A stretch of DNA of 64,000 nucleotides from Blastocatellia bacterium (GTDB lineage Bacteria > Acidobacteriota > Blastocatellia > UBA7656), in contig DATENM010000129.1 in assembly GCA_035275065.1 (NCBI GenBank), forward strand, positions 13,409 through 77,408, written 5' to 3'. This document shows positions 1 through 52,455 of this stretch, piece by piece. Under the pieces are notes generated by a model. That model was given only the letters and a program-made list of their open reading frames with translations, had not been told where the DNA came from and did not search any database. The position numbers and the translations under genes are program-made. Positions within the stretch are counted from its first letter, which is position 1. Every line of letters begins with the position of its first letter.

Positions 1-3000
1 GTCTCGTCGGTATCGAGCAGCAGGACCTGTTCTTCCCTGCGCTTGCCTTGCTGTGCGGGCCGGCCCGCATCACAGGCCAGGTGAGTGGGCGTGGTGAAGC
101 CTTTCAGCTCCTCTTTCCAGAATGACTGTGCGGGCTGGTGGTCTTGCCGCTTCAACCATGCGACATAATCTCTGTAGGGCCGCGCGCGCCGCGGTTGCGG
201 CTCTCGTTGCAGGGCTTCGCCGTCATAGCAGGCGAATACTTCCTTGATAATCAGCTCGCGGCACCAGGCGTCGTAGAGCAAGTGATGACTGCTCCAGACG
301 AAGAAGTAACTGTCTTCGCCCGTGCGTAGCAGGGCCAGGCGCAACAGCGGCGCGCGGGAAAGATCGAATCCCGCTTCGGCGTCGCTTACGAGGAACTGCC
401 GCAGACGCGCGCACTGCTCGTCGGGGCAAAGGGGCCGCCAATCCTCTTCATGCCAGGGGACCTCGACTTTTTCGTGGACAAGCTGCAAAGGCTCTTGTAG
501 CCCTTTCCACAAGAAGGAGGTCCGCAAGGCCGAATGCCGACCGACGACGGTCTGCCATGCGCGCCTGAAGGCTTGCGGGTCCAGCCGCCCGCCAATGCGA
601 CAGCTCGTTTGCACGAAGTAGAGGGCCGGGCCGGGCGCGTAGAGCGAATGAAACAACACGCCCTGTTGCATGGGCGAGAGCGTGTACAGGTCCTCAACCG
701 ATGCCCTGCGACCGAGCGCTCGGTCGAGCGTCTCCTGATCGAGGTTGGCGAGCGGGAAATCCGACGGCGTATAGCCGCCGACGCCCGGTGATTGGCAGTG
801 AACGATGAGGGCGCGCAAGCAAGCGGCAAACAAGTCAGCCAGATTCGCTACCGTCTGGCGGCGGTGAATGTTCTCGCTATACGTCCAGTCGATGCGCAGT
901 CGCCCATTGACGATCAACCCATTGAGGTCGAGCAGATGGCCGCGTGGATTATCGCCGTCCTGCACGGGGCCGGGGTTTTCTTGTGCCGGCGCAAACGGCG
1001 AAGCCTCCGAGAAGAGCTGGTCGAACTGCCCCAGGTAGTTGAAGCTGATCTGCGGGCGCGGCAGCTCGTCGAGTCGCCGCAGGCTGTCCGGGTCGCCGCT
1101 CAGGTAACGCAAAGCGCCGTAGGCGAAGCCGCGTCGCGGGAGCGCACGGAGCTGTTCTTTGATCTCCTTCAACACGTCGCCCACATGCCGCTTTCGCAAT
1201 TGCAGGCGGACGGGAAAGATCGTCGTAAACCATCCGACCGTGCGCGACAGGTCAATGTCTTCGGCCAGCGCCTCGCGTCCATGCCCTTCGAGATCGATCA
1301 GCACGTCGTCCTGACCGGTCCACAGGGTGCAAGCGTGGGCCAGGGCGCTCAAGAGCGCGTCATTGATCTGCGTATGGTAAGCCGCAGGCACGTCTCTGAG
1401 CAGCGCGCGGGTTTCTTCGGCGCTCAGCCAGACCGACACGGTGCGCGCCGAAGCCACCGTGTTGCAGCCCGCCGGCTCATCGACCGGCAGCGCACTCGCG
1501 GCGCCCTCCCACGGGGCGGCGAGCCAGTACTGCGCTTCCTGTTTGAGCGCCTCCGTCTGAGCGTAGGATTGCAGCCGCTGCGCCCACTGGCGGAAAGAGG
1601 TCGTTCGGGGCGGCAACTGCACGGTCCCGCCCCGCGCCAGTTGCTCGTAAGCGCTCTGCAAGTCTTCGAGCAGGATTCGCCAGGAAACGCCATCGATGAC
1701 CAGGTGGTGAATAATGATTAAGACCCGGTCAGCCTGCTGCTGGCCGAATTGAAAGAGCGCCACGCGCAGCAGCGGCCCGTCGGATATGTTAAGGCTGCGT
1801 TGCAGGTCGGCGGCAACGCTCTCCAGCGCCGCCAGTTGCTGCGCCTCCGGCACGCCCGATAAATCGACCCGCTGAACCGCCGCGCGGTCGCCGGCTGGCG
1901 AGCTGAACTGTCGCCAGTGCGTGCCCTGCCGGCGGAAGCGAAATCGCAGCGCGTCATGGTGCTGCAAGAGGTGGCCCACGGCTTCTTCCAACAGCTCCGC
2001 CTTCAGGGCCGCCCTCGCGGTCAGCAGAACGGCCTGGTTCCAGTGGTGCGGATTGGCGTAGCCCTGGTCAAAGAAGCGCCGCTGGATGGGCGTCAGTTCG
2101 ACATCGCCCTCTGCCGCTTCGGGCTCCGCCACATTCGCCGGCGCTGTATGGACGGACGCGGCCAGCGCGGCGACCGTCTGGTGCTCGAAGAGGTCCACGG
2201 GGGCCAGGTTATAGCCGGCCTGTCTGGCCCTGGAGACAATCTGTATGCAGAGGATGGAGTCGCCGCCCAGCTCGAAGAAGTTGTCCTCAATGCCGACTCG
2301 CTCGACCCCCAAGACCTGCGCCCAGATGCCGCACAGCGTTTCTTCGACGGTGTTGGTCGGCGCGTCATAGCCCCGCCGCCTGGGCTGTATCTCCGGCCTG
2401 GGCAGCGCGCGCCTGTCAATCTTGCCATTAGGGGTCAGCGGCATGGCCTCTAACACCACACAGGCGGCAGGGTACATATACTCTGGAAGCCGCCCCCGCA
2501 AATAATCCATCAACTCGGCGGCGGGCGGCGCTTGTCCTGTACCCACGACATAGGCCACCAGCCGCTGCACGCCGGGATCATCTTCGCGCACCAGCGCCAC
2601 GGCCTGCCCGACTGCCGGATGCTGCGCCAGCACCTCTTCGATTTCGCCGAGCTCGATACGGAAGCCACGGATTTTCAACTGGTAGTCCGTGCGTCCAATG
2701 TAGTTTACGTTCCCATCATCTAGATGCCGGGCCAGGTCGCCCGTGCGGTACATACGGGTTCCGGAGCCGGTAAAGGGGTCGGGGATGAACCGCTCGGCGG
2801 TCAAATCCGGCCTTCCCCAGTAGCCGCGCCCGAGGGCGGGGCCGCCGATGTAGAGGTGTGCGGCTGCCCCTGGGGCAGCCGGAGCGAGCTCGTCATCGAG
2901 GAGATAGGCCCGCGTGTTCGCTATCGGACGACCGATAGGGGCGCTCGGCCCCTCAAAGGGCTCGCAATGCCAGAAGAGCGTCTGGATAGTGGCTTCCGTC

Positions 3001-5285
3001 GGGCCGTACAGGTTGCACAACCCGCATGCCAGTTGCCGTAAGGCTTTCTCCTGCAACTCGCTGCTCAACGCTTCGCCGCCGCAGAAGGCTTGCCTGAGGC
3101 TAGTGCAGGTGTCGAGGCCGCCGGCCTCAAGCATCAGCCGCAGTTGTGCAGGGACCAGTTGCAGAACGGTCACCTGGTTTTCCCTCACGGCCTGCACCAT
3201 GTATTCGCCGTCGGCATGTCCTGAGGGGCGAGCCATAACCAGCTCGGCGCCGCTCAACAACGGGGCCCAAAATTCCCACACCGAGGCGTCGAAGCTGAAG
3301 GGCGTCTTCTGTAGCACGCGGTCCGTTTCGCGCACCGAAAACTCCCGGTCGAACCACGCCATGTGGTGCGCCAGCGAGCCGTTGCTTATGGCGACGCCTT
3401 TGGGCTTGCCCGTCGAGCCGGAGGTATAAAGGACGTATGCAAGTTGTTCGGGAAAGACTCGCGGCTGCGGGGCGAGGCCGCTTTCCTGCGCGATGATCTC
3501 CCAATCGGCGTCTACACAGACCTCGATGGCGAAGCCCTGCGGCAGCCGCGCCCGCAGCCGCGCTTGCGTCAGCACGATTGCCGCCCCGGAATCTTCCATC
3601 ATGTAGGCCAGGCGCTCAGCCGGGTAGCCGGGGTCAAGGGGCACGTAAGCGCCGCCGGCTTTCAGGATGGCCAGTAGCCCGAGCACCAGGTCAATCGACC
3701 GCTCCATGCAGATGGCGACTCGCACGTCCGGCCCGACGCCAAGCTGTCGCAGGTAATGGGCTAGCTGGTTGGCCCGCAGGTTCAACTCGCGGTAGCTCAC
3801 CTGTGCGTCTTCATGGCGCACGGCCACGGCGTCGGGCCGCCGTGCCCCCTGCGCCGAAACTTGCTCGGCGATGCTGCCCTCACCTGGAAGCGGCGACCGC
3901 GTATCGTTCCATTCAACCAACACCTGATGCGTTTCGGCCTCGCTCAGAAAGGCGATTTCGCAGATGCGCTTGTCGGCCCCGCAAGCGATCTCGTCCAGCA
4001 TGCGTTGCAAGTGTCTGAGGATGCGCGCAGCGGTTGCCTCATCAAAGCGGCGGCTGTTGTAGAGCAAGCGCAGTTGCAACTGCCGGCCAGGAATGGCGAC
4101 GACCAGCAGCGGATAATTAGGCTGCTCGTTGATCTGCACCTCGCCGATTTCGATGGCGCCGCTGTCACCGGCAGGGCTGCTCGACGTGCCGCGTGTCGGG
4201 TAGTTCTCGAATACCAGGTAGGTGCTGAACAGCGGCACGCCGCGCGGCACGTCGCTCCAACCCTGTACGTCGACCAGCGGGCTGTATTCGTACTGGCGCG
4301 CTTCGGCCTGCTGCGATTGCAGGGCTTGCAGCCACGACAGCAAAGGCGTCTGCGGCGACACCTGCACGCGCACGGGCAGCGTGTTGATGAACAACCCCAC
4401 CATAGATGCGACGCCGGGCAGGTCTGCCGGGCGTCCGGAAAGGGTCGCCCCGACGACCACGTCTGGATCACCGCTATAACGGCTCAGCAGGAGTGTCCAC
4501 GCGCCGAGGATGAGCGTATTCAAGGTGACGCCATGGCGGCGGGCCAGCGCCTGCAAGGCTTCCGTCATGGCCGCCGGTAAATCGGCGCGCACCTCGCGGT
4601 CGCTCGCCTCCTGTGTCGATGCCGCCGCGCTAGAGGCTTGCATCGGCAGCGGCGTTGGGGAGCGAAAGCCGCCCAGGAGCCGCCGCCAGAACCGCTCAGC
4701 GCCCGCCATGTCCTGTTGCTTCAGCCAGGCGATGTAATCTCTGTATGGGCGAGGGCGGTCCAACGCCAGGTCACGCCCCCGCCTGAAGGCTTCGTAGTAA
4801 GCCAGGGTCTCTTCCATGACGATCATAGAAGACCACCCGTCGAGCAAGAGGTGATGCTTGGTCCAGACGAACTGGTGCGCGTTCGAGCTCAGGCGGATCA
4901 ACGCCATCCGCATCAACGGCGGCACGCTCAGGTCAAAGCTACGCTCCCGGTCAATCCGCAAATACTCTTCCAACCGCTCCTGATGTCGGTCTTCGGGCAG
5001 GTGCCGCCAGTCGGCAGTTTCCCAAGGCAACTCGACCTGCGAGCGGACAATTTGCAGTGGCTCGTCGCGCTCCTGCCAGGTGAAGAGGGTGCGCAGGATG
5101 GGGTGTCTATCAACGACCCTCTGCCAGGCCCTTTTAAACGCCACGACGTCGAGATTGCCGTAGAGAGGGCAGCTTAACTGCACCACGTAGGCGGCTCGCG
5201 AGTCGGGGGCATAGATGCTGTGAAACAGTATGCCCCGCTGCAATGGCGACAGGGGATAGATCGCTTCGATGTTCCGCTTAGTCAT
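1..5285 (-). CDS. NRPS, 3'-truncated by window edge; domains C-A-T-E-C(partial)
   Basis: Absent from the ORF track because the minus-strand frame beginning ATG 5285 (MTKRNIEAIYPLSPLQRGILFHS...) has no stop down to position 1. None of the listed minus ORFs in 1-5285 share this frame. In-frame motifs I read: HHLLLDGWS (C3, ~4850), YRTGDLARHLDDGNV (A8, ~2700), LTPNGKIDRRALP (A10, ~2410), FFELGGDSI (T domain of the type that precedes E, ~2280), IIIHHLVIDGVSW (E domain, ~1715), SSHHLLYDAW (next C domain, ~280). The start codon is 23 nt downstream of the upstream NRPS stop. Confidence 0.8.
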   Translation of the reverse strand, partial: MTKRNIEAIYPLSPLQRGILFHSIYAPDSRAAYVVQLSCPLYGNLDVVAFKRAWQRVVDRHPILRTLFTWQERDEPLQIVRSQVELPWETADWRHLPEDRHQERLEEYLRIDRERSFDLSVPPLMRMALIRLSSNAHQFVWTKHHLLLDGWSSMIVMEETLAYYEAFRRGRDLALDRPRPYRDYIAWLKQQDMAGAERFWRRLLGGFRSPTPLPMQASSAAASTQEASDREVRADLPAAMTEALQALARRHGVTLNTLILGAWTLLLSRYSGDPDVVVGATLSGRPADLPGVASMVGLFINTLPVRVQVSPQTPLLSWLQALQSQQAEARQYEYSPLVDVQGWSDVPRGVPLFSTYLVFENYPTRGTSSSPAGDSGAIEIGEVQINEQPNYPLLVVAIPGRQLQLRLLYNSRRFDEATAARILRHLQRMLDEIACGADKRICEIAFLSEAETHQVLVEWNDTRSPLPGEGSIAEQVSAQGARRPDAVAVRHEDAQVSYRELNLRANQLAHYLRQLGVGPDVRVAICMERSIDLVLGLLAILKAGGAYVPLDPGYPAERLAYMMEDSGAAIVLTQARLRARLPQGFAIEVCVDADWEIIAQESGLAPQPRVFPEQLAYVLYTSGSTGKPKGVAISNGSLAHHMAWFDREFSVRETDRVLQKTPFSFDASVWEFWAPLLSGAELVMARPSGHADGEYMVQAVRENQVTVLQLVPAQLRLMLEAGGLDTCTSLRQAFCGGEALSSELQEKALRQLACGLCNLYGPTEATIQTLFWHCEPFEGPSAPIGRPIANTRAYLLDDELAPAAPGAAAHLYIGGPALGRGYWGRPDLTAERFIPDPFTGSGTRMYRTGDLARHLDDGNVNYIGRTDYQLKIRGFRIELGEIEEVLAQHPAVGQAVALVREDDPGVQRLVAYVVGTGQAPPAAELMDYLRGRLPEYMYPAACVVLEAMPLTPNGKIDRRALPRPEIQPRRRGYDAPTNTVEETLCGIWAQVLGVERVGIEDNFFELGGDSILCIQIVSRARQAGYNLAPVDLFEHQTVAALAASVHTAPANVAEPEAAEGDVELTPIQRRFFDQGYANPHHWNQAVLLTARAALKAELLEEAVGHLLQHHDALRFRFRRQGTHWRQFSSPAGDRAAVQRVDLSGVPEAQQLAALESVAADLQRSLNISDGPLLRVALFQFGQQQADRVLIIIHHLVIDGVSWRILLEDLQSAYEQLARGGTVQLPPRTTSFRQWAQRLQSYAQTEALKQEAQYWLAAPWEGAASALPVDEPAGCNTVASARTVSVWLSAEETRALLRDVPAAYHTQINDALLSALAHACTLWTGQDDVLIDLEGHGREALAEDIDLSRTVGWFTTIFPVRLQLRKRHVGDVLKEIKEQLRALPRRGFAYGALRYLSGDPDSLRRLDELPRPQISFNYLGQFDQLFSEASPFAPAQENPGPVQDGDNPRGHLLDLNGLIVNGRLRIDWTYSENIHRRQTVANLADLFAACLRALIVHCQSPGVGGYTPSDFPLANLDQETLDRALGRRASVEDLYTLSPMQQGVLFHSLYAPGPALYFVQTSCRIGGRLDPQAFRRAWQTVVGRHSALRTSFLWKGLQEPLQLVHEKVEVPWHEEDWRPLCPDEQCARLRQFLVSDAEAGFDLSRAPLLRLALLRTGEDSYFFVWSSHHLLYDAWCRELIIKEVFACYDGEALQREPQPRRARPYRDYVAWLKRQDHQPAQSFWKEELKGFTTPTHLACDAGRPAQQGKRREEQVLLLDTDE

Positions 5286-5308: not shown

Positions 5309-8300
5309 TTAGCCGAATTTCGCCATCAGGGAATCTAACTCGTTCTGGCTCAGGGCCACGTCGGGAAAATCCGAAGGGGTCAGGCCGCCGCTCGCGTCGG
5401 TCAGGCAGTGGTTGATGATCGCTCGCAAAGCCGCCAGGAAGTCCTCGCCGAGTCGCTCCATCGTCACGCGCCGGTGGACATTTTGACTATAGCGGAAAGA
5501 GAATTGCAGCCGCCCCTCGGCGACATGCCCGATCACCTCCAGCAGGTGCGGGCGGGCGGCTCGCGGGCTATTGTTGGGAGCGCGCAACTCCCGCATGCCC
5601 GCAAACAGCGGGCTGTTAGAAAAGACCTGGTCGAACTGTCCGACGTAGTTGAAGCTGATCTGGGCTTGCTGGCAGGCTCGCAACCGCGCGGCGACCGCGG
5701 CGTCGCCGCTCAGATAGCGCAGCAGGCCGTACCCTGTTCCGTGCTGCGGCAGCCGCCGCAGTTGTTCCTTGATCGATCTTAGGGCGGCCCCCGGTGCCGG
5801 CGAGTCTCCGGCATCCAACAGCACGGGGAAGCGCGTCGTGAACCAGCCGACCGTGCGCGATATATCGACGCCGGGCAACAGGTCGTGTCGCCCGTGGCTT
5901 TCCAGGTCGACCAGCAGTCTTGAGGAGCCGGTCCAGCAGGCAACCGCCTGTACCAGGGCGGTCAGTAGGATGTCTTCAACTTGGACCCGGTAGACGCCGG
6001 GGACCTCGCGCAGCAGTGCCTCGGTCGCTTGCGCGTCGAGTAACACCGTCACCGCACACGTCGAGCCTTCAGAGTTGACCCCGCCGTTCAGCTCGGCTGG
6101 GAGCATGGCCACAGGTTCGTCGGCGCCACTCAGCCAGTAATCGCCCTGCCGCCGCACCTCAGGCGATTGGGCGTACTCGGTCAATTGCTCCGCCCATTGC
6201 CGGTAAGAGGCCGTCTTGACGGGCAGAGTCACGGGCTGCCCGCCTGCAAGCTGCCCGTAGCCGGTTTGCAGGTCGTCGAGCAGCACATGCCAGGAGACCA
6301 CATCGACGGCCAGGTGGTGAATGATAATCAACAGCCAGTCGGGTCGGCTGCCGCCGCGTTGAAAGTGGAGCACCCGCAGCAGCGGCCCTTCGGCAAGGTT
6401 GAGACTGGCCTGCGCTTCGGCGGCCAGGCGTTCGACGGCCAGCCTTTGGTGCAATTCGGGCAGGGCCGCAATATCGACCTCGGCAAAAGGCAGCCCCGCA
6501 TCGGGTCTTGAATAAACCTGGCGCACCGCCTCGCCGTGGCGAGTGAACCGCAGCCTGAGCGAATCGTGATGCTCTAACAAGCGCCTGAGCGTCTCAGCCA
6601 GCAGGCTCGCGCTCAAGGGCTGCCGCGTTTCGAGCAGTAGAGACTGGTTCCAGTGGTGCGGGTCGGCGAAGTCCTGCTCGAAGAAACGGCGCTGAATCGG
6701 TGTGAGCGAAACCTCGCCGCTTACCGGCCCCTGTTCGGCCACAGGCCGACTGTGCTTACGCACGACCTCGGCCAGTTCGGCAATCGTCTGGCGCTCGAAG
6801 ATGTCCCGTTCCGTCAGTTGATAGCCGGCCTCTCTCGCCCGCGAGACAATCTGAATGCTGAGAATGGAATCTCCCCCGAGCCGGAAGAAATTCGCGCCGG
6901 TGCTGACCCGGTCGAGGCCGAGTACGTCAGCCCAAATTCGTGCCAGGTGCGCTTCAACCTCAGTCTGCGGGGCCGTGAAATCGGCCTCAGAGCCCTGCTC
7001 GCGCGTCTCCGGTGCGGGAAGTGCCCGCCGGTCAACCTTGCCATTGGCGGTCAGCGGCAACGACGGCAGCAGAACATAATCGGAGGGCACCATGTAGTCG
7101 GGCAGCCGGTCCCTGAGATAGCCCCAGATCGCCTCGGGTTCGAGGGCGGTCCCGCCGTTGGTATCGATGTAGGCGACCATCCTCTTGTTTCCGGGGCGGT
7201 CTTCGCGCGCCAGCACAACCGCCGTGCGCACGAGCGGGTGCTCGGCCAGCACGGCTTCTATCTCGCCTAACTCGATGCGGAAGCCGCGAATCTTTACCTG
7301 ATGATCGAGGCGGCCCAGGAAATCGATAGCCCCATCGGCCCGCCGCCGTGCCCTGTCCCCCGTACGGTAGAGTCGCCCCCCGGCCTGCCGCGCGAATGGG
7401 TTTGGCAGAAATCTCGACGCCGTCAGGTCGGGGCGGTTGAGATAGCCGCGGCTCACCCCCGCGCCGCCCAGGTAGATTTCCCCGCTCGCGCCGCCGGGCA
7501 GGGCATTCAAGCCGTCGTCCAGAATGTAAACCAGCGCGTTGGCGAGCGGCGGGCCGAGCGGCAGACTGGCTGACGGCTCGCCGCCGCTCTCGCCGGCCTT
7601 CACCTCGTAGGCCAGAGCGCCCACCGTCGTTTCCGTCGGGCCATAATGATTGATGACTTTGCAGTCCGGCTGCGCCTCTTGCAACTGTCGCACCCATGCG
7701 GCGGACGCGGCCTCGCCTCCGAGTATCAAGGTACGGCGCGGGCGTATACGTTGCCCGCCGCGCGTCGCGTGCAGGGCCGCCAGGTGCGAAGGCGTTATCT
7801 TGAGGTAATCGATGAAATGATTCTCGAAGTAATCGCCGAGCGCCGCCGCATCCTGCATGGCCTCGGCGGAGATGACATGCAGGCAGCCGCCCGTGAGCAG
7901 TGCCGGGAATATGGCCGTGTTTCCGAGGTCGGCAGCGAGCGTTGACAGCGTCGCGTGCCCTTCGCCTTCCCTGATCCTAAGCAGGCCAGCGATGGCGCGG
8001 CTGTAATTGACCAACTGGCGATGTTCAACCGCCACGCCCTTGGGCTTGCCCGTCGAGCCCGACGTGTAGATGACGTAGACGAGATTCTGCGGGCTTACCG
8101 CCGAGGCCGCGACGGCGGCGCTGACCGAGCCGGGCGATTCCCATTCCGCGTCGAGGGCGATCATCTCCACCTTGAGATGAGACATCTCCTTCGCCATCCG
8201 GCGCTGCGTCAGCATGAGAGTCGCCTGACTGTCTTCCAGCATGTAGGCCAACCGGTCCTTCGGGTACGCCGCATCAAGCGGCACGTAAGCACCGCCGGCT

Positions 8301-10009: not shown

Positions 10010-11131
10010 TCAGTCGGCGACGTGAACCTTGACCCATTCGGGATGGCGTTGAACTCTGAGCCAGTCCGAGGTCGTGTATTTCACCCAGTCCGCGCCGACC
10101 GGCTGGCTCAGGTCGTGTTTGAAGATGATGAAATCGCCGGAGCGTTTGACTTGCCGGAAGCCGGCGAGCTTGAAGGTCAACAGCATCATGCGGTTCCTCT
10201 GGTTGGCGAGAAATTCGGCCTGTAAGCGGACGCCCGCCGCACGGGCGAGCTGAAGCAAGTGGTTCATCATGATGGTTCCGACGCCAAACGACATCACGCG
10301 GCAGGACATCAGGAAGAGCTTGATCGTCCAGAGGTCGTGCCCCTTCTCGACCAGCGTCAGGCCGATCTTCCCATAGTCTCCGAAGTGATCTTTGAGGCTC
10401 GCGACCAGGAAGAGGTGGTCGGCGGATTGGCGCAGGGCGTTCAACTCATCGGGCGAGTAAACATAGCCGGTGGTGTTGAGCTGGTGCGTCCGCAGGGTCA
10501 ATTCTTCGGCGCGCTGCAAATCCTCCGCCTGGAGGGTGCCGATAGTGAACTCCAGGCCGAGGGTAGCGAGAAACTCTTCGCTCGGCCCGACGAACTGTTC
10601 CTCGGCCAGCTTGCGCCGCGCCGCGGCGCGGTACATCTCGCGGCGGCGGGCGGCGTCTTCGGTGACCAGGCGCGGCGAGAACTCCGGCCTCTGCGTCAGG
10701 GTCGCCAACTCGCTGGCCGCCAGCGTCATCACTTCGGGGAGGGCGTGTTTCACCTCTTCGCGCTCGTAGGCTTCGTCGTCAATGAAAGCCACCGCATCGA
10801 GACCGATGTTAATGGAGCCGGCGATTGAGCGGATGCTGGACGACTTCGCGTTCCAGTTCACCTGGGGGTAGAGGAAGTACTCATCCAGCCCCGCCTCTTT
10901 CAGCTTTGCCATGGCCTGCTCATGGTCGTTCTTGCTGGCAATTGAGTGCAGAATGCCGCGCTGGTCCAGGGCCTTGAGCGTCTGGTGTACGCCGTCCCGC
11001 ACCTGCACGCCGTCGCCCTCAAGCAGGGTGCCCTGCCAGATCGTATTATCAAGATCCCAGACCAGAAGCTTGATCAGCCGTGCGGTTGTTTCCTGTCCGT
11101 CTTTCGAGGTGGAAGGCAGAGCTATTGACAC
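10010..11131 (-). CDS. FkbH-like HAD-IIIC phosphatase / glyceryl-loading family protein (stand-alone)
   Basis: LIKLLVWDLDNTIWQG is the HAD motif I (DxDNT) typical of FkbH-like domains. The C-terminal GNAT-like half is as in FkbH. The track ORF begins at GTG 11233. An internal GTG at 11131 preceded by GAAGGAG (spacing 5) gives a typical ~19 aa lead before the DLDNT motif, so the start is uncertain (11131 vs 11233). Confidence 0.7.
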   Translation of the reverse strand: MSIALPSTSKDGQETTARLIKLLVWDLDNTIWQGTLLEGDGVQVRDGVHQTLKALDQRGILHSIASKNDHEQAMAKLKEAGLDEYFLYPQVNWNAKSSSIRSIAGSINIGLDAVAFIDDEAYEREEVKHALPEVMTLAASELATLTQRPEFSPRLVTEDAARRREMYRAAARRKLAEEQFVGPSEEFLATLGLEFTIGTLQAEDLQRAEELTLRTHQLNTTGYVYSPDELNALRQSADHLFLVASLKDHFGDYGKIGLTLVEKGHDLWTIKLFLMSCRVMSFGVGTIMMNHLLQLARAAGVRLQAEFLANQRNRMMLLTFKLAGFRQVKRSGDFIIFKHDLSQPVGADWVKYTTSDWLRVQRHPEWVKVHVAD

Positions 11132-24039: not shown

Positions 24040-24144
24040 CTTTTCAACCTCCGTAATTGAGATGTTCATCTGGTGGCTCCAGGCGATGGAGCCGTGATCA
24101 GTCGTTTGCGCGCCGTGCGGCTCGGCGCGCGGCGCGGCGGGCGG

Positions 24145-32700: not shown

Positions 32701-32791
32701 AGGCTACCGCATGTTGCACCGCCTCGCGTGCCGCTTTGCGTTTCGCGTTTCAGCCCTATCAAAGGTGAACAGGCTACCGCATGTTGCACCG
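32701..32791. repeat. Imperfect direct repeat: 21-bp core AGGCTACCGCATGTTGCACCG twice, 70 bp apart, each followed by a related ~11 bp tail
   Basis: Read directly at ~32701-32721 and ~32771-32791. It is adjacent to the IS630 remnant. Confidence 0.6.
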
Positions 32792-33000
32792 TCTTGTGTG
32801 CCTGCCTTAAAGGGCTATGTATGGATGCTGACCGGGCGATACGGCCTGGGCGTCCGCCCGCAGCCGCGACTGAAGGGCCTGGTCCAGCGGCAATGAGCCG
32901 ACCTTTACGATCACTCTGCCGCCAAAGAGAAAATAGCCAATCGCGAGTCGGAAGTCTTGAAGCCTACATCAATTTCCATTCAAAGTTTTTTAAACCTTCT

Positions 33001-35721: not shown

Positions 35722-35729
35722 GCAATGGC

Positions 35730-38020: not shown

Positions 38021-38115
38021 CAACCAAATCAGCGGGGCATCTGATTTCAGACCATCAACAAATGGGCGAGGGAGAGTGGTCCGTTATTACTTCGATTAGC
38101 GAATCAATCGCCGGC

Positions 38116-41598: not shown

Positions 41599-44500
41599 TG
41601 TTTCCCCCCTCGCTGTTGACCGCGACATTCGATGCCCGTTTGCGACAGGTTCGGATGTCAAGGTCCAGCGCCCTTGGCTCGTACCACATTCCATCCTGAA
41701 AAGCCCTCGCCAGGCTCCTGGGTGATGGGTAGCTGTAGAACTCCTCAATGCCCGGTCGGCAGTTGAACTCTTTTTCGAGCCGGGTCGCGATCCTGGTTAT
41801 GTCAATGGAGTTCGCGCCCAGTTCGAGCAGGTTGGTGTCCGCGCCTACGTGATCTAGCTTGAGAACGTCGGCAATGCATTCGGCAATTCGCTCCTCGACC
41901 GACATGCCTCTTTGCGCCGGCGGGTCGGCGGGCAGGCTCGCTGTCCTGGCCTGGCCGGCCAGCGCCTTGCGATCAACCTTGCCATTGGCCGTGAGCGGCA
42001 GGCTGTCGCTGATGACGAAGGCCGAAGGTATCATATAGGCGGGCAATTTCTTCCTGAGAAAGCGGCGCAACTCATCAACGGTCGGGGCCGAGCCGGGGTC
42101 GGCAGCCAGGTAAGCGACCAGCCGCTTGTTTTCGCGCGCCCCCTCGGCGACCACCGCCTTCGAGCGCACGCCGGGGTAATTGCCCAGCGCCGCTTCGATC
42201 TCTCCGAGTTCGATGCGATAGCCCTGAATCTTCACCTGAGCGTCTACGCGGCCAAGAAATTCGATAGTTCCGTCAGGAAGATAACGGCCAAGGTCGCCCG
42301 TCCGGTAGAGCCGCTCGCCGGTGCGCGGGTGGGTGATAAAACTCGCCTCGGTGAGCCGGTCATCCCGCCAATAGCCCAGGGCCAGGCCGACGCCGCCTAT
42401 ATACAAGTCGCCGGCAACCCAGACCGGGCGCGGCTCCAGCGCCTGGTTCAAAACGTGGAAACGCTGATTAGCTAGTGGCCGCCCATAGGGAATGCTTGGC
42501 AGGTCGGTCGGCTGGCCGTCGGCCGGGTGGAAGATGGACCACACGGACGCTTCGGTCGCGCCCCCAAGGCTAATCACTTGAGCAGCAGGGGCAAGCGCCT
42601 TGATCCTGTCAGGCAGGGTGACGGAAATCCAGTCGCCGCTCAAGAGCACGAGGCGCAATGACCCGGCGGGCCGGCCGCCGCGGCCAGCCGCGCAGGCCAC
42701 CAGCATCTCCATCACGGCCGGCGCAGAATTCCAAACCGTCACCTCCTCGCGGTCAATCAGGTCGAGCCAACGCGCCGCGTCACGGCTCGCAGAGGCAGCC
42801 GGCATGACGATAGTGCCGCCCGCCGCCAACGTCCCGAAAATATCATAGACGGAAAGATCGAAGCTCAGGTTTGAAACCGCCAGGACCCGATCATCTGGCC
42901 CTATCCCGAAACGCCTGTTGATGTCGAGCAAGGTGTTTACGGCCCCCTTATGATCGATCATCACGCCCTTGGGCAATCCCGTCGAGCCGGACGTGTAGAT
43001 GACGTAAGCGAGATCATCGGGCTGCTGCGCCGGTTCGGGCGGCGCGCCGGCCTCGCCGGGCGGCTCAAAATCGACCGCCAATCGCTGTAGCTCGCGGGGC
43101 CATTCGAGGGCTTCGTCAACCCACGACTGGGTTAGCACAATAGAGACTTCGCCGTGGCTGAGCAGGTGCCAGAGGCGTTCCTGCGGTAAGCCCGGGTCAA
43201 GCGGCAGGTAGGCCGCCCCGGCTTGTAGGATCGCCAGAACGGCGGCGACCTGTTCCACCCCCTTTTCCATAACCACCGCGACCAGCGTGTTGGGGCGAGC
43301 GCCCATCAGCCTGAGCTTGCGGCTCAGGCCGTTGACTCTCGCTTGCAGTTCTTCATAAGTGAGCGAGCCGCTCGCCGCGACGACGGCGGTCTGCTGCGGT
43401 CGCCTTTTGGCCTGCTCCTGGAATAAGCCCTGCAACAGGGCCGGCGCGGCGGCCACTTCAGTCTGATTGATGGCGTCGCGCTGGCGGCGCTGAGCGGGCG
43501 GCAGGAGACTGCCGGACGGTTGCCGCCAGGCGCGCGGGTCATCACTCAGCCGCCGCAATAACGAGCAATAGGTCTCGAACATGTCATCGAGCAGGCGCTC
43601 TGGGAACAGGCTTTCGACCGCATCCCAGTTGAAGACCAGGTTGCCGCCCTCTTCGAGCACTTGATGATCGAGCCAGACCTGCGGCGTCTGGGTGATGCCG
43701 TACACAACGTCACCCATCCATAACGTCTTCTCCGTCCGCTTGCCGGCCTGGTGGGGCGACAACAGGCTGGTGAAGACGATGGGCAGGGCCGCGCCCGGCG
43801 TGCGCCCATGCGCCCGCGCCAGTTCGCGCAGAATTTCAACGCCGCTGACGAACCGGTGGTCGAGGTCTTCGAGCAGTTGCGCCTGCACGCGGCCAGCCCG
43901 CGCCGCGAACGAAATTCCCGACGCCGTGTCGACGGACAGCGGCACCAGCGACGTGAAATCGCCGATGATCTCTTGCACCTGCGGGTGCAGCGGCAAGCGG
44001 TTGAGCAGCGTCACGTTGAGCGTGAACTCGGGTTTTCTGCTCCAGGTCGCCAGCACGTCGGCAAAGGCCGTCAGGAGCGCGCCGGAAGGGGTCAGGCCGA
44101 GCTCGGCGGCATGGGCCTTGATTTGCGCCCACGCCCCGGCCTGCAACTGCCCCGTGCGCCGCACGAATCGGGGGCGGGCCTGCGAACCTGGGTTGTTGGC
44201 AAGCGGCAGGTCGGGCGCAGGCGGCAGGCTGGACAGACGCTTCGCCCAATACTGCTGCGATTGACGGTAAGACTCCGAATCCTTCAACTCGGCTTCCGCC
44301 ACGACGTAATCCCTGAATTGCAGGTCGAGTGGCGGCAGCGGCGCATCGAGGTCGGCGTAGAGTATCGCCCATTCCGAAAACAGAATCTGCAAGCTCCAAA
44401 CGTCGGCGATCAGTATGTCGAAGCTGAAGTGCAGGCGGACGCCGCCATCGTTGAGCCGCGAGGCACAAATCTCGAACAGCGGCCAGCGGTCGGACGGCAA

Positions 44501-45039
44501 CACCTGATGCGACATGCGGTGACGAACCGCCTCGAGCACGGCGGCAGCCTGCTCGGCCGTGTGCCGCCGCAAGTCGAGGACTTTGATCTCGTAACGCGGC
44601 ACCTGCTCTAGAACCTGCTGCCTGCCGTCCGCAAGTACGATGGCGCGCAGCATGTCGTGGCGCTCGATTAAACGCTGCAAAGCCAGTTCGAGCCGCGGCA
44701 GGTCAAGCTGCTCGGCCTGCACTTCGTAATACGCATGGCAACTGACGTTGCCCAACTCGACGGTGCCGCCGCGACCAATCCAGTAAGCCTGCTGAATGTC
44801 TGTCAGCGGGAAGGGCTCGTAGCGACGCCGCGGGTCGGGGATGGCAATGGGGAGCGCGCTGTCAGCGTCGGCCCGCTGAGCTTTTTCGAGCAACTCCATA
44901 ACCGCGGCCTTGTGCGCCGCCAGCTTGGCCTGTAGCTCGGGCGTGAGCACCCCCTTGGGGGCGCGGACGCGCAGATGTTCGCCGTCGCTCCACACCTCGG
45001 CGTTCTGCCGGATCAGGTCAGTCAGTACTTCAGACGCCA

Positions 45040-45043
<4 letters not shown>
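41552..45043 (-). CDS. NRPS heterocyclization module Cy-A(Cys-like)-T with N-terminal docking domain
   Basis: Cy motifs FPLTDIQQAYWIGR and FDILIADVWS (DxxxxDxxS). A domain: YTSGSTGLPKGV, SNLSFDLSVYDIFG (code begins D-L-Y as in Cys-activating domains), YRTGDLGRYLPDGTIEFLGRVDAQVKIQGYRIELGEIE, LPAYMIPSAFVISDSLPLTANGKVDR. T domain LLELGANSIDITRI. The start ATG overlaps the PKS stop (ATGA), RBS GGGAGGAA. Confidence 0.85.
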
Positions 45044-51561
<6,518 letters not shown>

Positions 51562-51779: not shown

Positions 51780-52322
51780 TCAGGCGTAGCAAACCGTATC
51801 GCTAACTTTGCGTAACATGCCGCGTTCGATGCGGACGCGGGCTCGGTAAAGAACAGTGTTCAGCAACACCTCGACGCGATCAGAATCCTTCATTTCCTTC
51901 TCAAAAACTCCGGTCAGGTTCTGGAAGACGCCCTCTTGAATTACCACCATATCGCCGGGCTTTATGCCGTCGCCGAGCTTAACGAAGCCATCTTTGCCGA
52001 TACGGGAGCGAACCAGAGCAATGATCTCCTCATCGACCTCGGTCGGGCCATCGCCAAATCCCACCAACCCCTGCACGCCTCTGGTGTAGCGGATTTTGTG
52101 GAATAACCGTTCGAGATTGAAACAAGCGAAGACGTAGCGTGAGAACAGCGGCTTAACCGTGTACCGGGGAAGACCGTTGAATGCGTTGTAGGAAACATCA
52201 CGGAACTGAGGTGAAAGCGTTTCGATATTCCAGGCGCGAAGATTGCTAATTGCCCGATCTTCTTGCTTCGGTTTGGTATGAATCAGGAACCAGGAGCGCT
52301 CGTCGTTGTCCAGATTACTCAT
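51780..52322 (-). CDS. NusG/RfaH-family paralog (LoaP/TaA/UpxY-like specialised transcription antiterminator)
   Basis: NGN domain WFLIHTKPKQEDRAISNLRAWNIETLSPQF...RYVFACF. KOW motif IKPGDMVVIQEGVFQNLTGVFEKE. Start at ATG 52322 (MSNLDNDE), preceded by GGAGG with a 6-nt spacer. The track's N-terminal extension is rejected. Confidence 0.75.
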   Translation of the reverse strand: MSNLDNDERSWFLIHTKPKQEDRAISNLRAWNIETLSPQFRDVSYNAFNGLPRYTVKPLFSRYVFACFNLERLFHKIRYTRGVQGLVGFGDGPTEVDEEIIALVRSRIGKDGFVKLGDGIKPGDMVVIQEGVFQNLTGVFEKEMKDSDRVEVLLNTVLYRARVRIERGMLRKVSDTVCYA

Positions 52323-52455
52323 AGCCATCCTCCAATTACACCGTCTGGGCTTGGCGCGTAGCCATATATCTTTAATCCGTCGGGAACCTGCGGATTTCAG
52401 TAGCTTCGTGCGCAGTGGAATACTACACAAGTGGGCTGAGTAAGTATTTATTAGC

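What the first reader, a model, noticed from the sequence alone, without database searches (positions are those of the whole stretch)
1..52430. ~52 kb hybrid PKS-NRPS lipopeptide cluster with non-collinear two-block organisation, extending beyond the window
In this window I see one PKS module, a Cy-A-T module, three complete C-A-T-type modules (two carrying E domains), a 3'-truncated NRPS with a further E domain and the beginning of the next C domain, a FAAL-ACP-C lipoinitiation protein and a C-A-T-TE termination module. Tailoring, export and regulatory genes accompany them.

The termination module is the second gene of block B, whereas the lipoinitiation protein sits in the middle of the same block, so gene order cannot equal assembly order. 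The two blocks are split by a plus-strand regulator and an IS630 scar.

The predicted product would be a glycosylated, carbamoylated, thiazoline-containing lipopeptide with at least two D-amino acids. I cannot match this combination to a cluster I know.
Basis: partly seen in the sequence, partly recalled or inferred. Interest (0 to 1): 0.8.

Follow-up and report, generated by a model that had tools for sequence, protein, structure and literature searches.

The report
Acidobacterial hybrid NRPS-PKS glycolipopeptide gene cluster
The window holds most of a large, intact and so far uncharacterised gene cluster from an uncultured soil acidobacterium (class Blastocatellia) that should build a sugar-decorated, fatty-acid-primed peptide-polyketide; it is a good genome-mining lead but is built from known enzyme types.

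Summary
Window 3-52322 (minus strand) carries an intact hybrid NRPS-PKS cluster. It has a fully reducing PKS, a Cy-A-T module with a Cys code, and C-A-T. It also has C-A-T-TE, FAAL-ACP-C, C*-A-T-E and a cut C-A-T-E-C… gene. Corrections: there are two E domains, not three. The source is a 94.7-kb Blastocatellia metagenome contig. The cut gene is 2615 aa. Downstream come KS-AT-KR-ACP-C, a half-C-A(Tyr)-T protein, a 2OG oxygenase and glycosyltransferases. The closest relative adds five tandem glycosyltransferases and another C-A-T gene, so the whole cluster is about 80 kb or more. The two-block order, the regulator and the 'IS630' ORF are all conserved in that relative (67-85% aa identity), and the ORF has dN/dS of 0.24. 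It is therefore a maintained HTH gene, not a decaying scar. The start matches the myxoglucamide layout (FAAL-ACP-C, then a His-less C-like domain-A-T). Unusually, FkbH is interposed without a carrier domain. A PvdE-type exporter and a periplasmic acylase suggest the lipid may be removed after export. I found no characterised match. Verdict: new member of a known kind, moderate interest.

The parts
51780..52322 (-). NusG specialised paralogue (RfaH/LoaP-like), first gene of block A
   Evidence: Pfam NusG. TIGR01955 RfaH 86.5 bits, below the 144.5 cut-off. Best PDB match is RfaH at 4e-10, against NusG at 3.5e-6. The gene call is 180 aa.
52491..52505 (-). A-rich motif TAAAAAAACTTTAAA upstream of the NusG-like gene
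   Evidence: One of only two matches to TTAAAAAACTTTRAA in the 64 kb; 0 of 100 shuffles gave two matches.
45040..51561 (-). PKS1: KS-AT-DH-ER-KR-ACP (fully reducing)
   Evidence: Pfam. Motifs TACSS, HGTGT, HxxxGxxxxP, LIHSASGGVG, LDD, YAAAN; AT has GQSMG and VASH. End-to-end match to mycocerosic acid synthase 9d2z at 1240 bits.
41552..45061 (-). TubC_N docking domain-Cy-A(Cys)-T; its start overlaps the stop of PKS1
   Evidence: Pfam TubC_N, Condensation, AMP-binding and PP-binding. Cy motif FDILIADVWS. Specificity code DLYNLSLVWK.
38116..41388 (-). C-A-T module, substrate unassigned (code DVYVITHVTK)
   Evidence: Pfam. HHIICDGWS. Code. C-terminal tail ...VEQLSD.
36590..38023 (-). Free-standing C domain whose second catalytic His is replaced (LHQIICDDWS)
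   Evidence: Pfam Condensation 4.9e-65. The HQ motif is conserved in the relative. dN/dS 0.20.
35730..36512 (-). Type II thioesterase (GHSMG)
   Evidence: Pfam Thioesterase 6e-43 on the 260-aa gene call.
33934..35721 (+). Divergently transcribed regulator: OmpR/CadC-type winged helix plus TPR repeats
   Evidence: Pfam Trans_reg_C and TPR. NCBIfam. 81% identical in the relative, dN/dS 0.10.
33001..33495 (-). HTH-only ORF related to the N-terminus of IS630 transposases; no DDE domain
   Evidence: Pfam HTH_32/29/23. NF033545 covers positions 2-120 of 299, 95.9 bits, below the cut-off of 100. The orthologue sits at the same site in L019, dN/dS 0.24.
32979..32993 (-). A-rich motif TTAAAAAACTTTGAA at the start of the block B leader
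   Evidence: Conserved in L019.
32699..32789 (-). Two exact 21-nt boxes GTGCAACATGCGGTAGCCTGT (32769-32789 and 32699-32719), 70 nt apart, with an ops-like core GCGGTAGCCTG on the non-template strand
   Evidence: 0 expected. Both boxes and their spacing are identical in L019, while the flanks are about 72% identical.
31337..32506 (-). GT1-family (macrolide-type) glycosyltransferase
   Evidence: Pfam UDPGT and EryCIII_C. TIGR01426 at 142 bits, below cut-off.
27097..31284 (-). Termination module C-A-T-TE; A code VDFVVSSADK (beta-amino-acid type)
   Evidence: Pfam. Domain limits. Code. TE motif GFSWG.
25967..27034 (-). Luciferase-like flavin monooxygenase
   Evidence: Pfam Bac_luciferase. NCBIfam hits all below cut-off.
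24145..25857 (-). Cyclic-peptide export ABC transporter (PvdE/SyrD type)
   Evidence: TIGR01194 at 500 bits, cut-off 286.
23437..24069 (-). MbtH-like domain fused to an unassigned 145-aa C-terminal region
   Evidence: Pfam MbtH 2e-21 over residues 17-65 of 210.
22698..23300 (-). Ankyrin-repeat protein
   Evidence: Pfam Ank families.
20169..22595 (-). Secreted Ntn-hydrolase acylase (penicillin amidase family)
   Evidence: Pfam 1.4e-207. N-terminal signal-like sequence, and Ser276 (SNNW) aligned to residue 1 of acylase beta chains. Best PDB match is D-succinylase 7ea4 at 3.6e-87.
17615..20098 (-). Carbamoyltransferase with DUF3471 C-terminal extension
   Evidence: Pfam Carbam_trans_N/C and DUF3471.
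17136..17603 (-). 155-aa double HTH_31-type protein
   Evidence: Gene call and Pfam. NCBIfam weak.
14873..16870 (-). Carbamoyltransferase (NodU/NovN type)
   Evidence: Pfam. The gene call is 665 aa.
11317..14847 (-). Lipoinitiation protein FAAL-ACP-C with an active C (HHIISDAWS)
   Evidence: Pfam AMP-binding, DIP2-like, PP-binding and Condensation. FAAL-type insertion seen in the alignment. The C domain is close to the two ordinary C domains of the cluster, 345 bits.
10010..11131 (-). Stand-alone FkbH (glyceryl-loading HAD/acyltransferase enzyme) with no adjacent carrier domain
   Evidence: TIGR01686 at 264 bits, cut-off 147. DLDNT and SCRV motifs. It sits at the same position in all four related clusters.
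5309..9931 (-). First amino-acid module C*-A(Asp-type)-T-E; C* lacks both catalytic histidines
   Evidence: Pfam. IAALCGD. The motif SI[AS]ALC[GS]D is conserved in three relatives. Code DLTKIGHVGK.
3..5285 (-). 5' 1761 codons of a 2615-aa NRPS C-A(Gln)-T-E-C-A(Asn-type in relatives)-T, running 2.56 kb past the left edge
   Evidence: Pfam. Domains. Full length from the source contig. Codes DAWQFGLIQK, and DLTKIGEVCK/GK in relatives.

Best explanation
The window holds about two thirds of one intact, vertically conserved hybrid NRPS-PKS biosynthetic gene cluster. The whole cluster is about 80 kb or more. It comes from an uncultured Blastocatellia (Acidobacteriota) bacterium and is arranged as two co-oriented operons.

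Shown:
- Domain inventory, active-site motifs, intact reading frames and purifying selection.
- Conservation of the two-block layout.
- Continuation of the cluster beyond the window.

Inferred pathway:
1. FAAL-ACP loads a fatty acid.
2. The C domain fused to FAAL-ACP N-acylates Asp held on the next protein. That protein's own N-terminal C-like domain is non-catalytic and would serve as a scaffold or interface. This is the layout of myxoglucamide MxgA/MxgB.
3. Chain growth continues through D-Asp, D-Gln and an Asn-type residue.
4. A malonate unit reduced to beta-hydroxy follows (KS-AT-KR-ACP-C).
5. Tyr is added on a half-C-A-T protein next to a 2OG oxygenase.
6. One further C-A-T module follows.
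7. Most likely the block A proteins come next: a fully reduced ketide, Cys cyclised to thiazoline, and one unassigned residue.
8. The C-A(beta-amino acid)-T-TE module releases the chain.

Glycosyltransferases (at least 2 here, 6 in the closest relative) and two carbamoyltransferases decorate the product. A PvdE-type ABC exporter moves it out. The signal-peptide Ntn acylase probably removes the N-acyl chain from the D-Asp terminus outside the cytoplasm.

The two operons share a unique promoter-proximal motif. Block B carries twin conserved boxes that may recruit the cluster's NusG paralogue.

The role and carrier of the stand-alone FkbH remain unresolved.
For: Domains and motifs.

Source and taxon:
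- Exact-protein look-ups place the window on ENA contig k141_246357, 94,720 bp.
- NCBI names its proteins 'Blastocatellia bacterium'.
- The flanking gene is TIGR03436 acidobact_VWFA.

Continuation beyond the window:
- The cut gene is 2615 aa.
- The source sample's 5.1-kb Logan contig L033 (the 881-aa protein P0124 is also on the 94,720-bp contig) carries the end of the PKS2 gene, which aligns to the C-terminal C domain of its relatives, then half-C-A-T, a 2OG oxygenase and a glycosyltransferase.
- Relatives show KS-AT-KR-ACP-C, half-C-A-T, 2OG, 3-5 glycosyltransferases, C-A-T and a carbamoyltransferase.

Same two-block order in an independent assembly: Ga0307468_100000034, 67-85% aa identity, dS about 1, dN/dS 0.08-0.24.

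Hand-off logic:
- Two proteins end in an active C domain, and exactly two proteins begin with a dead or truncated C.
- Each E domain is followed by a C domain with the LSPLQ-type start.
- The PKS1 stop overlaps the start of the TubC_N-Cy protein.
- Two carrier tails carry an (I/V)EQLS(D/E) motif. Three C-domain heads carry an S-x-EKQ/AK-x-x-L-type motif.
- This leaves the PKS1 KS as the only acceptor for the last C-A-T protein.

Maturation: TIGR01194 exporter at 500 bits. The acylase has a signal-like N-terminus and Ser276, and its best PDB match is D-succinylase.

Co-regulation: the A-rich motif is found only upstream of both operons, and the twin 21-nt boxes are conserved.

Literature parallels: the MxgA/MxgB layout (PMC13638107) and acylated precursors that are deacylated (PMC10099666).
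Against: - No experiment and no MIBiG or antiSMASH comparison was possible.
- The order in which the protein segments act is inferred from adjacency and short terminal motifs only.
- Block B plus its extension is formally complete from FAAL to TE without block A. Block A also has its own thioesterase II and a free C domain.
- FkbH has no carrier domain and no FkbI/J/K partners in the roughly 100 kb inspected across the source contig and its relatives, so one conserved enzyme is unexplained.
- The C* domain aligns best to ordinary C domains (Txo1). I could not place it in the published interface-domain clade.
- The 2OG oxygenase is PF13759/TIGR02466, which to my knowledge is not the family of the amino-acid beta-hydroxylases described for interface domains.
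- The acylase scores only 70 bits against the PvdQ model (cut-off 950).
- Specificity codes were read against a GrsA sequence recalled from memory. The numbering was checked by recovering DAWTIAAICK. Two codes are unassigned or only type-level.
- The left 13.4 kb of the window's own contig was seen only through the 5.1-kb Logan contig L033, so the counts of glycosyltransferases and the last modules come from relatives.
Confidence: 0.55

Rival explanations
1. There are two assembly lines side by side. Block B plus its leftward extension is a self-contained line: FAAL start, Asp-Gln-Asn-ketide-Tyr-X, then beta-amino acid-TE. Block A is a separate line. Its MAS-like PKS is primed by a cellular fatty acyl group, then passes the chain to Cy-A-T and C-A-T. 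The free C domain either releases that chain or grafts it onto an amine or hydroxyl of the other product (convergent assembly). The type II thioesterase acts as editor.
For: - Block B plus extension runs from a loading module to a TE without needing block A.
- PKS1 matches mycocerosic acid synthase end to end. To my knowledge that enzyme is an iterative PKS primed by fatty acyl groups.
- The free C domain follows C-A-T directly. Its head is of the same type as the head of the termination module. It is under purifying selection, dN/dS 0.20.
- A divergent regulator separates the blocks. Block A has its own NusG paralogue.
Against: - Block A has no loading module, no type I TE or reductase, no exporter and no tailoring genes.
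- The free C domain has lost the second histidine of HHxxxDG.
- A unique A-rich motif is shared by both leaders.
- The juxtaposition is conserved at dS of about 1.
- The tail of the last C-A-T protein in the 58% relative lacks the EQLS-type motif that would pair with the head of the termination module.
Confidence: 0.3
2. The start is a vioprolide/corramycin-type acyl-glycerate cap. FkbH delivers glycerate, the FAAL-linked C domain esterifies it with the fatty acid, and the acyl-glyceryl unit caps the peptide as a removable pro-moiety. Here the dedicated carrier and the next condensation step would be replaced by the His-less C-like domain recruiting FkbH.
For: - FkbH is a confident member of its family, with HAD and SCRV motifs intact.
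- In four related clusters it always lies between FAAL-ACP-C and the first A-T protein.
- FAAL-ACP-C-HAD-T is the described start of vioprolide and corramycin (PMC10099666).
- Interface domains have been proposed to recruit additional enzymes (PMC13638107).
Against: - No carrier domain follows FkbH in any of the four clusters.
- The next C-like domain is catalytically dead, so an acyl-glyceryl thioester could not be condensed in the usual way.
- The maturation enzyme here is an amide-cleaving Ntn acylase rather than an esterase.
- The closest FkbH paralogue inspected sits in a classical FkbH/ACP/dehydrogenase cassette for PKS extender units.
Confidence: 0.15
3. The product is an amphiphilic siderophore. 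Beta-hydroxy-Asp and thiazoline would be the iron ligands. It would be made as a lipopeptide, exported by a PvdE-type pump and delipidated by the acylase, as for pyoverdine.
For: - An Asp module is preceded by an interface-like domain, and the cluster holds a 2OG oxygenase.
- Cy-Cys module.
- MbtH, a TIGR01194 exporter and a secreted acylase.
- Titles and abstracts returned by the literature search describe lipopeptide siderophores with beta-hydroxy-Asp ligands and their enzymatic delipidation.
Against: - No TonB-dependent receptor, no uptake or reductase genes, and no hydroxamate or catechol genes anywhere in the 64-kb window or in the inspected relatives.
- Up to six glycosyltransferases and two carbamoyltransferases would be unusual for a siderophore (own knowledge).
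- The oxygenase family, to my knowledge, is not that of the siderophore Asp hydroxylases.
Confidence: 0.08
4. The two-block arrangement is an assembly chimera, or the cluster is a decaying remnant split by a mobile element.
For: - The source is a short-read metagenome contig.
- An IS630-related ORF lies at the junction.
- The Logan contigs of the same sample do not span the junction.
Against: - The same junction, regulator and HTH ORF occur in an independently assembled JGI contig from a different sample.
- All genes are intact with dN/dS of 0.08-0.24.
- No DDE domain, no inverted repeats and no gene remnants were found at the junction.
Confidence: 0.02

Closest known systems
Myxoglucamide pathway (mxg) of Cystobacterineae sp. 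MCy9003: MxgA FAAL-ACP-C-Ox followed by MxgB I-A-T (PMC13638107)
   Same: - Lipoinitiation by FAAL-ACP fused to an active, ordinary-type C domain.
- The next protein begins with a C-like domain lacking the catalytic histidine, followed by A-T.
- A tailoring enzyme is encoded between the two.
- Hybrid NRPS/PKS glycolipopeptide with glycosyltransferases, a flavin monooxygenase and a discrete C-like protein.
   Different: - Here the interposed enzyme is a stand-alone FkbH, not a fused 2OG dioxygenase.
- The first residue is Asp-type with an E domain, not Glu.
- The cluster is far larger. It adds a Cy module, a fully reducing PKS, a second 'C | half-C-A-T' junction, carbamoyltransferases, an acylase and a PvdE-type exporter.
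- The phylum is different. No sequence comparison with Mxg proteins was possible.
Vioprolide / corramycin starter FAAL-ACP-C-HAD(FkbH)-T (PMC10099666)
   Same: - FAAL-ACP-C is directly followed by an FkbH enzyme.
- In both cases the acylated precursor is expected to be deacylated during maturation.
   Different: - FkbH is a separate protein.
- No carrier domain follows it.
- The following C-like domain is inactive.
- The candidate deacylase is an Ntn amidase rather than the putative hydrolase ComB that the corramycin paper proposes.
Pyoverdine maturation (acyl-primed PvdL, exporter PvdE, periplasmic acylase PvdQ) and telomycin deacylase Tem25 (own knowledge)
   Same: - An acyl-primed NRPS.
- A TIGR01194-family exporter.
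- A signal-peptide Ntn hydrolase of the penicillin-amidase family encoded in the cluster.
   Different: - The acylase is closer to D-succinylase and penicillin G acylase than to PvdQ. It scores 70 bits against the PvdQ model, cut-off 950.
- There are no chromophore or siderophore uptake genes.
RfaH-ops, LoaP and TaA: NusG paralogues that keep RNA polymerase processive on long operons (PMC5995543 for ops; LoaP and TaA from own knowledge)
   Same: - A NusG paralogue is encoded at the head of a very long biosynthetic operon. Its best structural-database match is RfaH.
- Conserved leader boxes have a core GCGGTAGCCTG on the non-template strand. It keeps C3, G4-A7, G8, T11 and G12 of ops GGCGGTAGCGTG.
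   Different: - It scores below the RfaH family cut-off.
- The RfaH residues H20, R23 and Q24, which form the T6 pocket, are not conserved.
- The boxes lie in the leader of the other operon.
- No function was tested.
Mycocerosic acid synthase (PDB 9d2z) type fully reducing PKS
   Same: Same domain order KS-AT-DH-ER-KR-ACP, same length, end-to-end alignment.
   Different: Here it is translationally coupled to a Cy-A-T NRPS through a TubC_N docking domain. It therefore behaves as a module of a hybrid line. Whether it works iteratively is unknown.

Membership tests
Hybrid modular NRPS / type I PKS biosynthetic gene cluster | KS, AT and ACP domains together with C, A and T domains, a loading function and a releasing TE, all with intact catalytic motifs | tested here: met
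   Pfam and motif checks. All frames are open.
Heterocyclisation (Cy) module | DxxxxD motif in place of HHxxxDG, plus a Cys/Ser/Thr-specific A domain | tested here: met
   FDILIADVWS. Code DLYNLSLVWK, the Cys type as I recall the published code.
FAAL lipoinitiation | Adenylating domain with the FAAL-type insertion, followed by an ACP with the serine motif | tested here: met
   About 25-aa insertion relative to A domains in the alignment. PF23024 DIP2-like C-terminal subdomain and PP-binding LGVDSL.
Vioprolide/corramycin-type acyl-glycerate starter | FAAL-ACP-C followed by an FkbH domain | tested here: met
   Gene order 14847-10010. TIGR01686 at 264 bits.
Vioprolide/corramycin-type acyl-glycerate starter | A carrier (T) domain directly after FkbH, then an active C domain | tested here: not met
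   FkbH ends at 10010 and the next gene starts at 9931 with a His-less C-like domain. The same holds in three relatives.
Interface (I) domain of the condensation superfamily | C-like fold lacking the catalytic HHxxxDG, placed N-terminal to A-T and after an active C | tested here: met
   IAALCGD at the motif position, conserved as SI[AS]ALC[GS]D. The layout matches MxgA/MxgB.
Interface (I) domain of the condensation superfamily | Groups with the published I-domain clade in a C-domain phylogeny, and partners with a beta-hydroxylase | not testable with these tools
   No reference I-domain sequences were available. The PDB search puts Txo1 C domains first. A 2OG oxygenase of family PF13759 lies outside the window.
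PvdQ-type acylase | Reaches the NF051460 equivalog cut-off | tested here: not met
   70 bits against a cut-off of 950. It is a general penicillin-amidase family member with Ser276 and a signal-like N-terminus.
IS630 transposase / insertion sequence | Full-length transposase with a DDE catalytic domain | tested here: not met
   Only profile positions 2-120 of 299 are matched, below the cut-off. No DDE-coding remnant lies downstream. dN/dS is 0.24. Terminal inverted repeats were not searched for.
RfaH-ops antitermination | RfaH family membership, conserved ops-contact residues, and an ops element in the leader | tested here: inconclusive
   TIGR01955 at 86.5 bits, below 144.5. K10, T72 and R73 are kept but H20, R23 and Q24 are not. 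The ops-like core is present twice and conserved.
FkbH-I-J-K hydroxy/methoxymalonyl-ACP extender cassette | FkbH accompanied by a discrete ACP and two dehydrogenases | tested here: not met
   None is present in the window or in the inspected relatives. The cassette is present next to a 66% paralogue in Blastocatellia AA13.

The most novel reading that the evidence does not exclude
This family of acidobacterial clusters may use a new lipoinitiation variant. A catalytically dead C-like domain would recruit a free-standing FkbH, and a glycerate-derived unit would be installed at the peptide N-terminus without any dedicated carrier or condensation domain. In addition, the two operons of the cluster may be tied together by an RfaH-like NusG paralogue acting through twin, perfectly conserved ops-like boxes. 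To my knowledge that would be the first ops-type recruitment system described in Acidobacteriota.
Probability: 0.12. Interest if true: 0.65.

Novelty: new member of a known kind. Interest (0 to 1): 0.45.

Why it matters
- My literature searches returned no characterised assembly-line product from soil Acidobacteria, although papers describe them as abundant and rich in biosynthetic clusters.
- This cluster is intact and under selection.
- At least four metagenome assemblies carry it or a close relative, so it is a concrete target for capture or refactoring.
- It gives testable questions about three things: non-catalytic C-like domains at protein junctions, an FkbH with no carrier, and lipid removal after export.
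- It does not by itself overturn anything known about NRPS-PKS logic.

Tried and rejected
1. Exact-protein look-ups of the 1540-aa module failed twice, although the gene is called with that length on the contig. So I could not fetch the left 13.4 kb of the source contig directly. I reached it only through the source sample's 5.1-kb Logan contig L033 and through orthologous contigs.
2. The genome-collection scan found no close relative. The best hits were 44-45% identical, in Myxococcus, Chloroflexota and Pyrinomonadaceae. The organism is therefore not among the GTDB species representatives.
3. The metagenome scan with the free C domain found one true orthologue. The other hits (35% or less) proved to be in-line C domains of unrelated synthetases.
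4. I looked for remnants of the KamA-like aminomutase and aminotransferase genes of the relative in the window. There are none.
5. Rfam found nothing at gathering thresholds over the whole window, and nothing credible in the leader. The sigma-70 promoter scan of the junction found nothing.
6. A consensus fold of the twin-box leader gave no covariation, because the boxes are invariant.
7. The PDB search could not assign the His-less C-like domain to a special class.
8. Literature searches for a described acidobacterial cluster of this type found none.
9. I considered and rejected the idea of a recent IS insertion splitting the cluster.
10. I considered that FkbH feeds a methoxymalonyl-type extender. 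I rejected this for lack of the partner genes.

Full report
WHAT IS THERE

Six-frame analysis shows a nearly continuous run of long minus-strand reading frames from position 3 to about 52.3 kb. One plus-strand gene interrupts it. G+C content is 61-66% across the run and falls to 50-58% beyond 52 kb.

Pfam and NCBIfam scans, plus my own domain and motif mapping, give the following map in transcription order.

Block A:
- RfaH-like NusG paralogue (51780-52322).
- PKS1 KS-AT-DH-ER-KR-ACP (45040-51561).
- TubC_N docking domain-Cy-A-T (41552-45061). Its start overlaps the PKS1 stop.
- C-A-T (38116-41388).
- A free C domain (36590-38023).
- A type II thioesterase (35730-36512).

Junction:
- A divergent OmpR/TPR regulator (33934-35721, plus strand).
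- A 164-aa HTH ORF related to the N-terminus of IS630 transposases (33001-33495).
- A 0.5-kb leader.

Block B:
- Glycosyltransferase (31337-32506).
- C-A-T-TE (27097-31284).
- Luciferase-like monooxygenase.
- TIGR01194 cyclic-peptide ABC exporter.
- MbtH fusion protein.
- Ankyrin protein.
- Penicillin-amidase family acylase (20169-22595).
- Two carbamoyltransferases flanking a 155-aa HTH protein.
- FAAL-ACP-C (11317-14847).
- FkbH (10010-11131).
- C*-A-T-E (5309-9931).
- The first 1761 codons of a C-A-T-E-C… gene that runs off the left edge (3-5285).

Beyond 52.4 kb lie an acidobacterial VWA-domain protein, a tricorn-like protease, lipases and an FtsX permease. None of these looks biosynthetic.

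CHECK OF THE OBSERVATION

It errs in count. There are two E domains (HHLAVDVVS and HHLVIDGVS), not three.

- The Cy domain has DILIAD.
- The C domains of C-A-T, C-A-T-TE and FAAL-ACP-C have HHxxxD.
- The two C domains that follow E domains start with the LSPLQ/LSPMQ signature. I recall this (own knowledge) as typical of C domains that accept a D-configured donor.
- The free C domain reads LHQIICDDWS, so the second histidine is lost.
- The N-terminal C-like domain of the 5309-9931 protein reads IAALCGD, so both histidines are lost.

I read specificity codes against a GrsA sequence recalled from memory. Its numbering reproduced DAWTIAAICK, which serves as a check. The residue assignments for each code are also from memory. 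The codes are:
- DLYNLSLVWK: Cys.
- DLTKIGHVGK: Asp type.
- DAWQFGLIQK: Gln. The relative has the canonical DAWQFGLIDK.
- VDFVVSSADK: the beta-alanine or beta-amino-acid type.
- DVYVITHVTK: unassigned.

SOURCE AND EXTENT

Exact-protein look-ups place the window at bases 13,409-77,408 of ENA metagenome contig ERZ27257050:k141_246357 (94,720 bp). Shorter Logan contigs from SRR5195144 carry the same genes. NCBI names two of the contig's proteins 'Blastocatellia bacterium'. The flanking TIGR03436 protein fits Acidobacteriota. No species-representative genome carries a close relative.

The cut gene is 2615 aa in full (C-A-T-E-C-A-T) and ends 2.56 kb left of the window.

The source sample's 5.1-kb Logan contig L033 carries the 881-aa protein P0124, which is also on record on the 94,720-bp contig. 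L033 shows what follows: the end of a PKS gene that aligns to the C-terminal C domain of its relatives, an 881-aa 'half-C'-A-T protein (code DASTIAAVCK, Tyr type), a 2OG-Fe(II) oxygenase and a second glycosyltransferase.

Orthologous contigs show the full picture:
- In the 77% relative (JGI Ga0307468_100000034): KS-AT-KR-ACP-C (2025 aa; AT motif HAFH), half-C-A-T, 2OG oxygenase, five tandem glycosyltransferases, then another C-A-T gene.
- In the 58% relative (contig named JX_forest): three glycosyltransferases, a 1162-aa C-A-T and a carbamoyltransferase.

The source contig itself probably ends inside the cluster.

IS THE TWO-BLOCK LAYOUT REAL AND OLD?

A metagenome scan with the free C domain found its orthologue on the same JGI contig as the block B orthologues. 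It lies about 34 kb upstream and in the same orientation.

tblastn shows the same order there: PKS1, Cy-A-T, C-A-T, free C, thioesterase II, divergent regulator, HTH ORF, then the glycosyltransferase and C-A-T-TE. Identities are 67-85%.

Synonymous divergence between the two clusters is about 1. dN/dS is 0.08-0.24 for the six genes tested. That set includes the IS630-like ORF (0.24) and the free C domain (0.20).

The ORF matches only the first 120 of 299 positions of the IS630 transposase model and scores below its cut-off. It is a maintained HTH-only gene, not a decaying scar. The layout predates the split of the two organisms. The independent assembly also argues against a chimera.

The one difference at the junction is that the relative has a KamA-family aminomutase and a class III aminotransferase between the leader and the glycosyltransferase. 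This fits the beta-amino-acid code of the termination module. The window has no trace of these two genes.

HOW IT PROBABLY WORKS

Two proteins end in an active C domain: FAAL-ACP-C and KS-AT-KR-ACP-C. Exactly two proteins begin with a non-catalytic C remnant:
- C*-A-T-E, whose motif SI[AS]ALC[GS]D is conserved in four clusters.
- The half-C-A-T protein, which starts just after the active-site region in all four clusters.

Each pair is adjacent. The simplest reading is that the upstream C domain does the chemistry and the remnant serves as a scaffold.

This is the layout reported for myxoglucamide. MxgA is FAAL-ACP-C-Ox, with an ordinary active C. MxgB starts with a His-less 'interface' domain followed by A-T (PMC13638107).

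The inferred chain is:
1. Fatty acyl.
2. D-Asp.
3. D-Gln.
4. An Asn-type residue.
5. A beta-hydroxy C2 unit.
6. Tyr, possibly hydroxylated by the neighbouring 2OG oxygenase.
7. One more residue from the far C-A-T protein.

Three facts favour, but do not prove, that block A acts next (a saturated ketide, thiazoline from Cys, one unassigned residue) before the beta-amino acid-TE module releases the chain:
- Carrier tails of the block A C-A-T and of half-C-A-T share an (I/V)EQLS(D/E) motif.
- The heads of the free C domain, the termination module and the far C-A-T share an S-x-EKQ/AK…L…L motif.
- The PKS1 KS is the only acceptor left for the far C-A-T protein.

Decoration would come from the glycosyltransferases and carbamoyltransferases.

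Three features point to periplasmic removal of the N-acyl chain from the D-Asp terminus:
- The exporter is of the PvdE/SyrD family (500 bits, cut-off 286).
- The acylase has a signal-like N-terminus and the Ser276 nucleophile of Ntn hydrolases.
- Its best solved relative is a D-succinylase, which by its name hydrolyses N-succinyl-D-amino acids (own knowledge).

Such delipidation is known for pyoverdine and telomycin (own knowledge), and deacylation is proposed for corramycin and described for vioprolide (PMC10099666). The mature product may therefore not be a lipopeptide.

WHAT REMAINS UNEXPLAINED

FkbH is a confident family member with intact DxDxT and SCRV motifs. It sits between FAAL-ACP-C and C*-A-T in all four clusters.

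The described FAAL-ACP-C-FkbH-T starter has a carrier after FkbH. Here there is none, and the next C-like domain is dead.

The partner genes for extender-unit synthesis are absent here, but they flank a 66% paralogue in another Blastocatellia genome.

Either a carrier lies in the unseen part of the cluster, or FkbH uses one of the existing carriers or the aminoacyl-T directly. The latter would be new chemistry, and I give it low probability.

REGULATION (noticed in passing)

The block B leader holds two exact 21-nt boxes, GTGCAACATGCGGTAGCCTGT, 70 nt apart on the non-template strand. They occur nowhere else in the window. Both boxes and their spacing are identical in the relative, although the flanks are about 72% identical.

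The core GCGGTAGCCTG keeps C3, G4-A7, G8, T11 and G12 of the E. coli ops element GGCGGTAGCGTG (PMC5995543).

The cluster's NusG paralogue matches RfaH better than NusG in the PDB. It lacks RfaH's H20, R23 and Q24 pocket residues and falls below the family cut-off.

An A-rich motif, T[TA]AAAAAACTTT[GA]AA, occurs only twice in 64 kb: just upstream of each operon.

Together these hint at one regulon. They are not proof.

COMPARISON AND NOVELTY

Every enzyme type here is known. The closest described logic is a mosaic of:
- The myxoglucamide start.
- The vioprolide/corramycin FkbH start. This fails on the carrier domain.
- Pyoverdine-like export and deacylation. This fails the PvdQ equivalog cut-off.
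- A MAS-like reducing PKS.
- NusG-paralogue control.

Top protein hits carry only generic names. Literature searches found no described acidobacterial cluster of this type. MIBiG could not be queried.

I file it as a new member of a known kind, of moderate interest: a well-defined, conserved, intact target from a phylum with almost no characterised assembly-line products.

Noticed in passing
window 32699-32719 and 32769-32789 (minus strand); L019 15272-15288 and 15342-15358: Two exact 21-nt boxes, GTGCAACATGCGGTAGCCTGT, lie 70 nt apart in the block B leader. They are perfectly conserved in a relative whose flanks are about 72% identical. The core resembles the RfaH ops element.
   Followed up: partly
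window 32979-32993 and 52491-52505 (minus strand): The A-rich motif T[TA]AAAAAACTTT[GA]AA occurs only twice in 64 kb, once just upstream of each of the two operons. It may be a shared promoter or UP element.
   Followed up: partly
window 51605-51616 (minus strand), about 45-55 nt upstream of the PKS1 start codon at 51561: GGTGGTAACCTG matches the ops consensus at 9 of 12 positions, with the C3:G8 pair changed to T3:A8. This could easily be chance.
   Followed up: no
L019 15478-17933 versus window 32506-33001: The closest relative carries a KamA-family radical SAM aminomutase and a class III aminotransferase between the leader and the first glycosyltransferase. The window has no remnant of them, although its termination module has a beta-amino-acid-type code.
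   Followed up: yes
window 33001-33495: The IS630-related ORF encodes only the HTH part of a transposase and is under purifying selection (dN/dS 0.24). It looks like a domesticated regulator.
   Followed up: yes
window 22698-23300 and 17136-17603; L038-L040 16375-17549: An ankyrin protein of about 200 aa and a 155-aa double-HTH protein also occur side by side in an unrelated Blastocatellia AA13 cluster. That cluster has a classical FkbH/ACP/dehydrogenase cassette. The pair may be a recurrent acidobacterial accessory module.
   Followed up: no
window 23437-24069: The MbtH-like domain (residues 17-65) is fused to a 145-aa C-terminal region with no family match.
   Followed up: no
L033 722-3367; homologues P0121-P0234: Proteins of about 870-900 aa, consisting of the C-terminal half of a C domain plus A-T, are common in Blastocatellia and Pyrinomonadaceae metagenome bins (46-50% identity). 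The 'C at the end of one protein, remnant at the start of the next' junction may therefore be widespread in this phylum.
   Followed up: partly
window 48982-49902 (PKS1 AT); L018 17856-23933 (PKS2 AT): Both acyltransferase domains deviate from the usual GHSxG nucleophile motif. PKS1 has GQSMG with VASH. PKS2 has GYSIG with HAFH.
   Followed up: no
window 17615-20098: One of the two carbamoyltransferases carries a DUF3471 domain and about 270 extra C-terminal residues.
   Followed up: no
window 52813-58566: The flanking genes are a TIGR03436 acidobacterial VWA-domain protein and a tricorn-like protease. They are useful as taxonomic markers and mark the right border of the cluster.
   Followed up: partly
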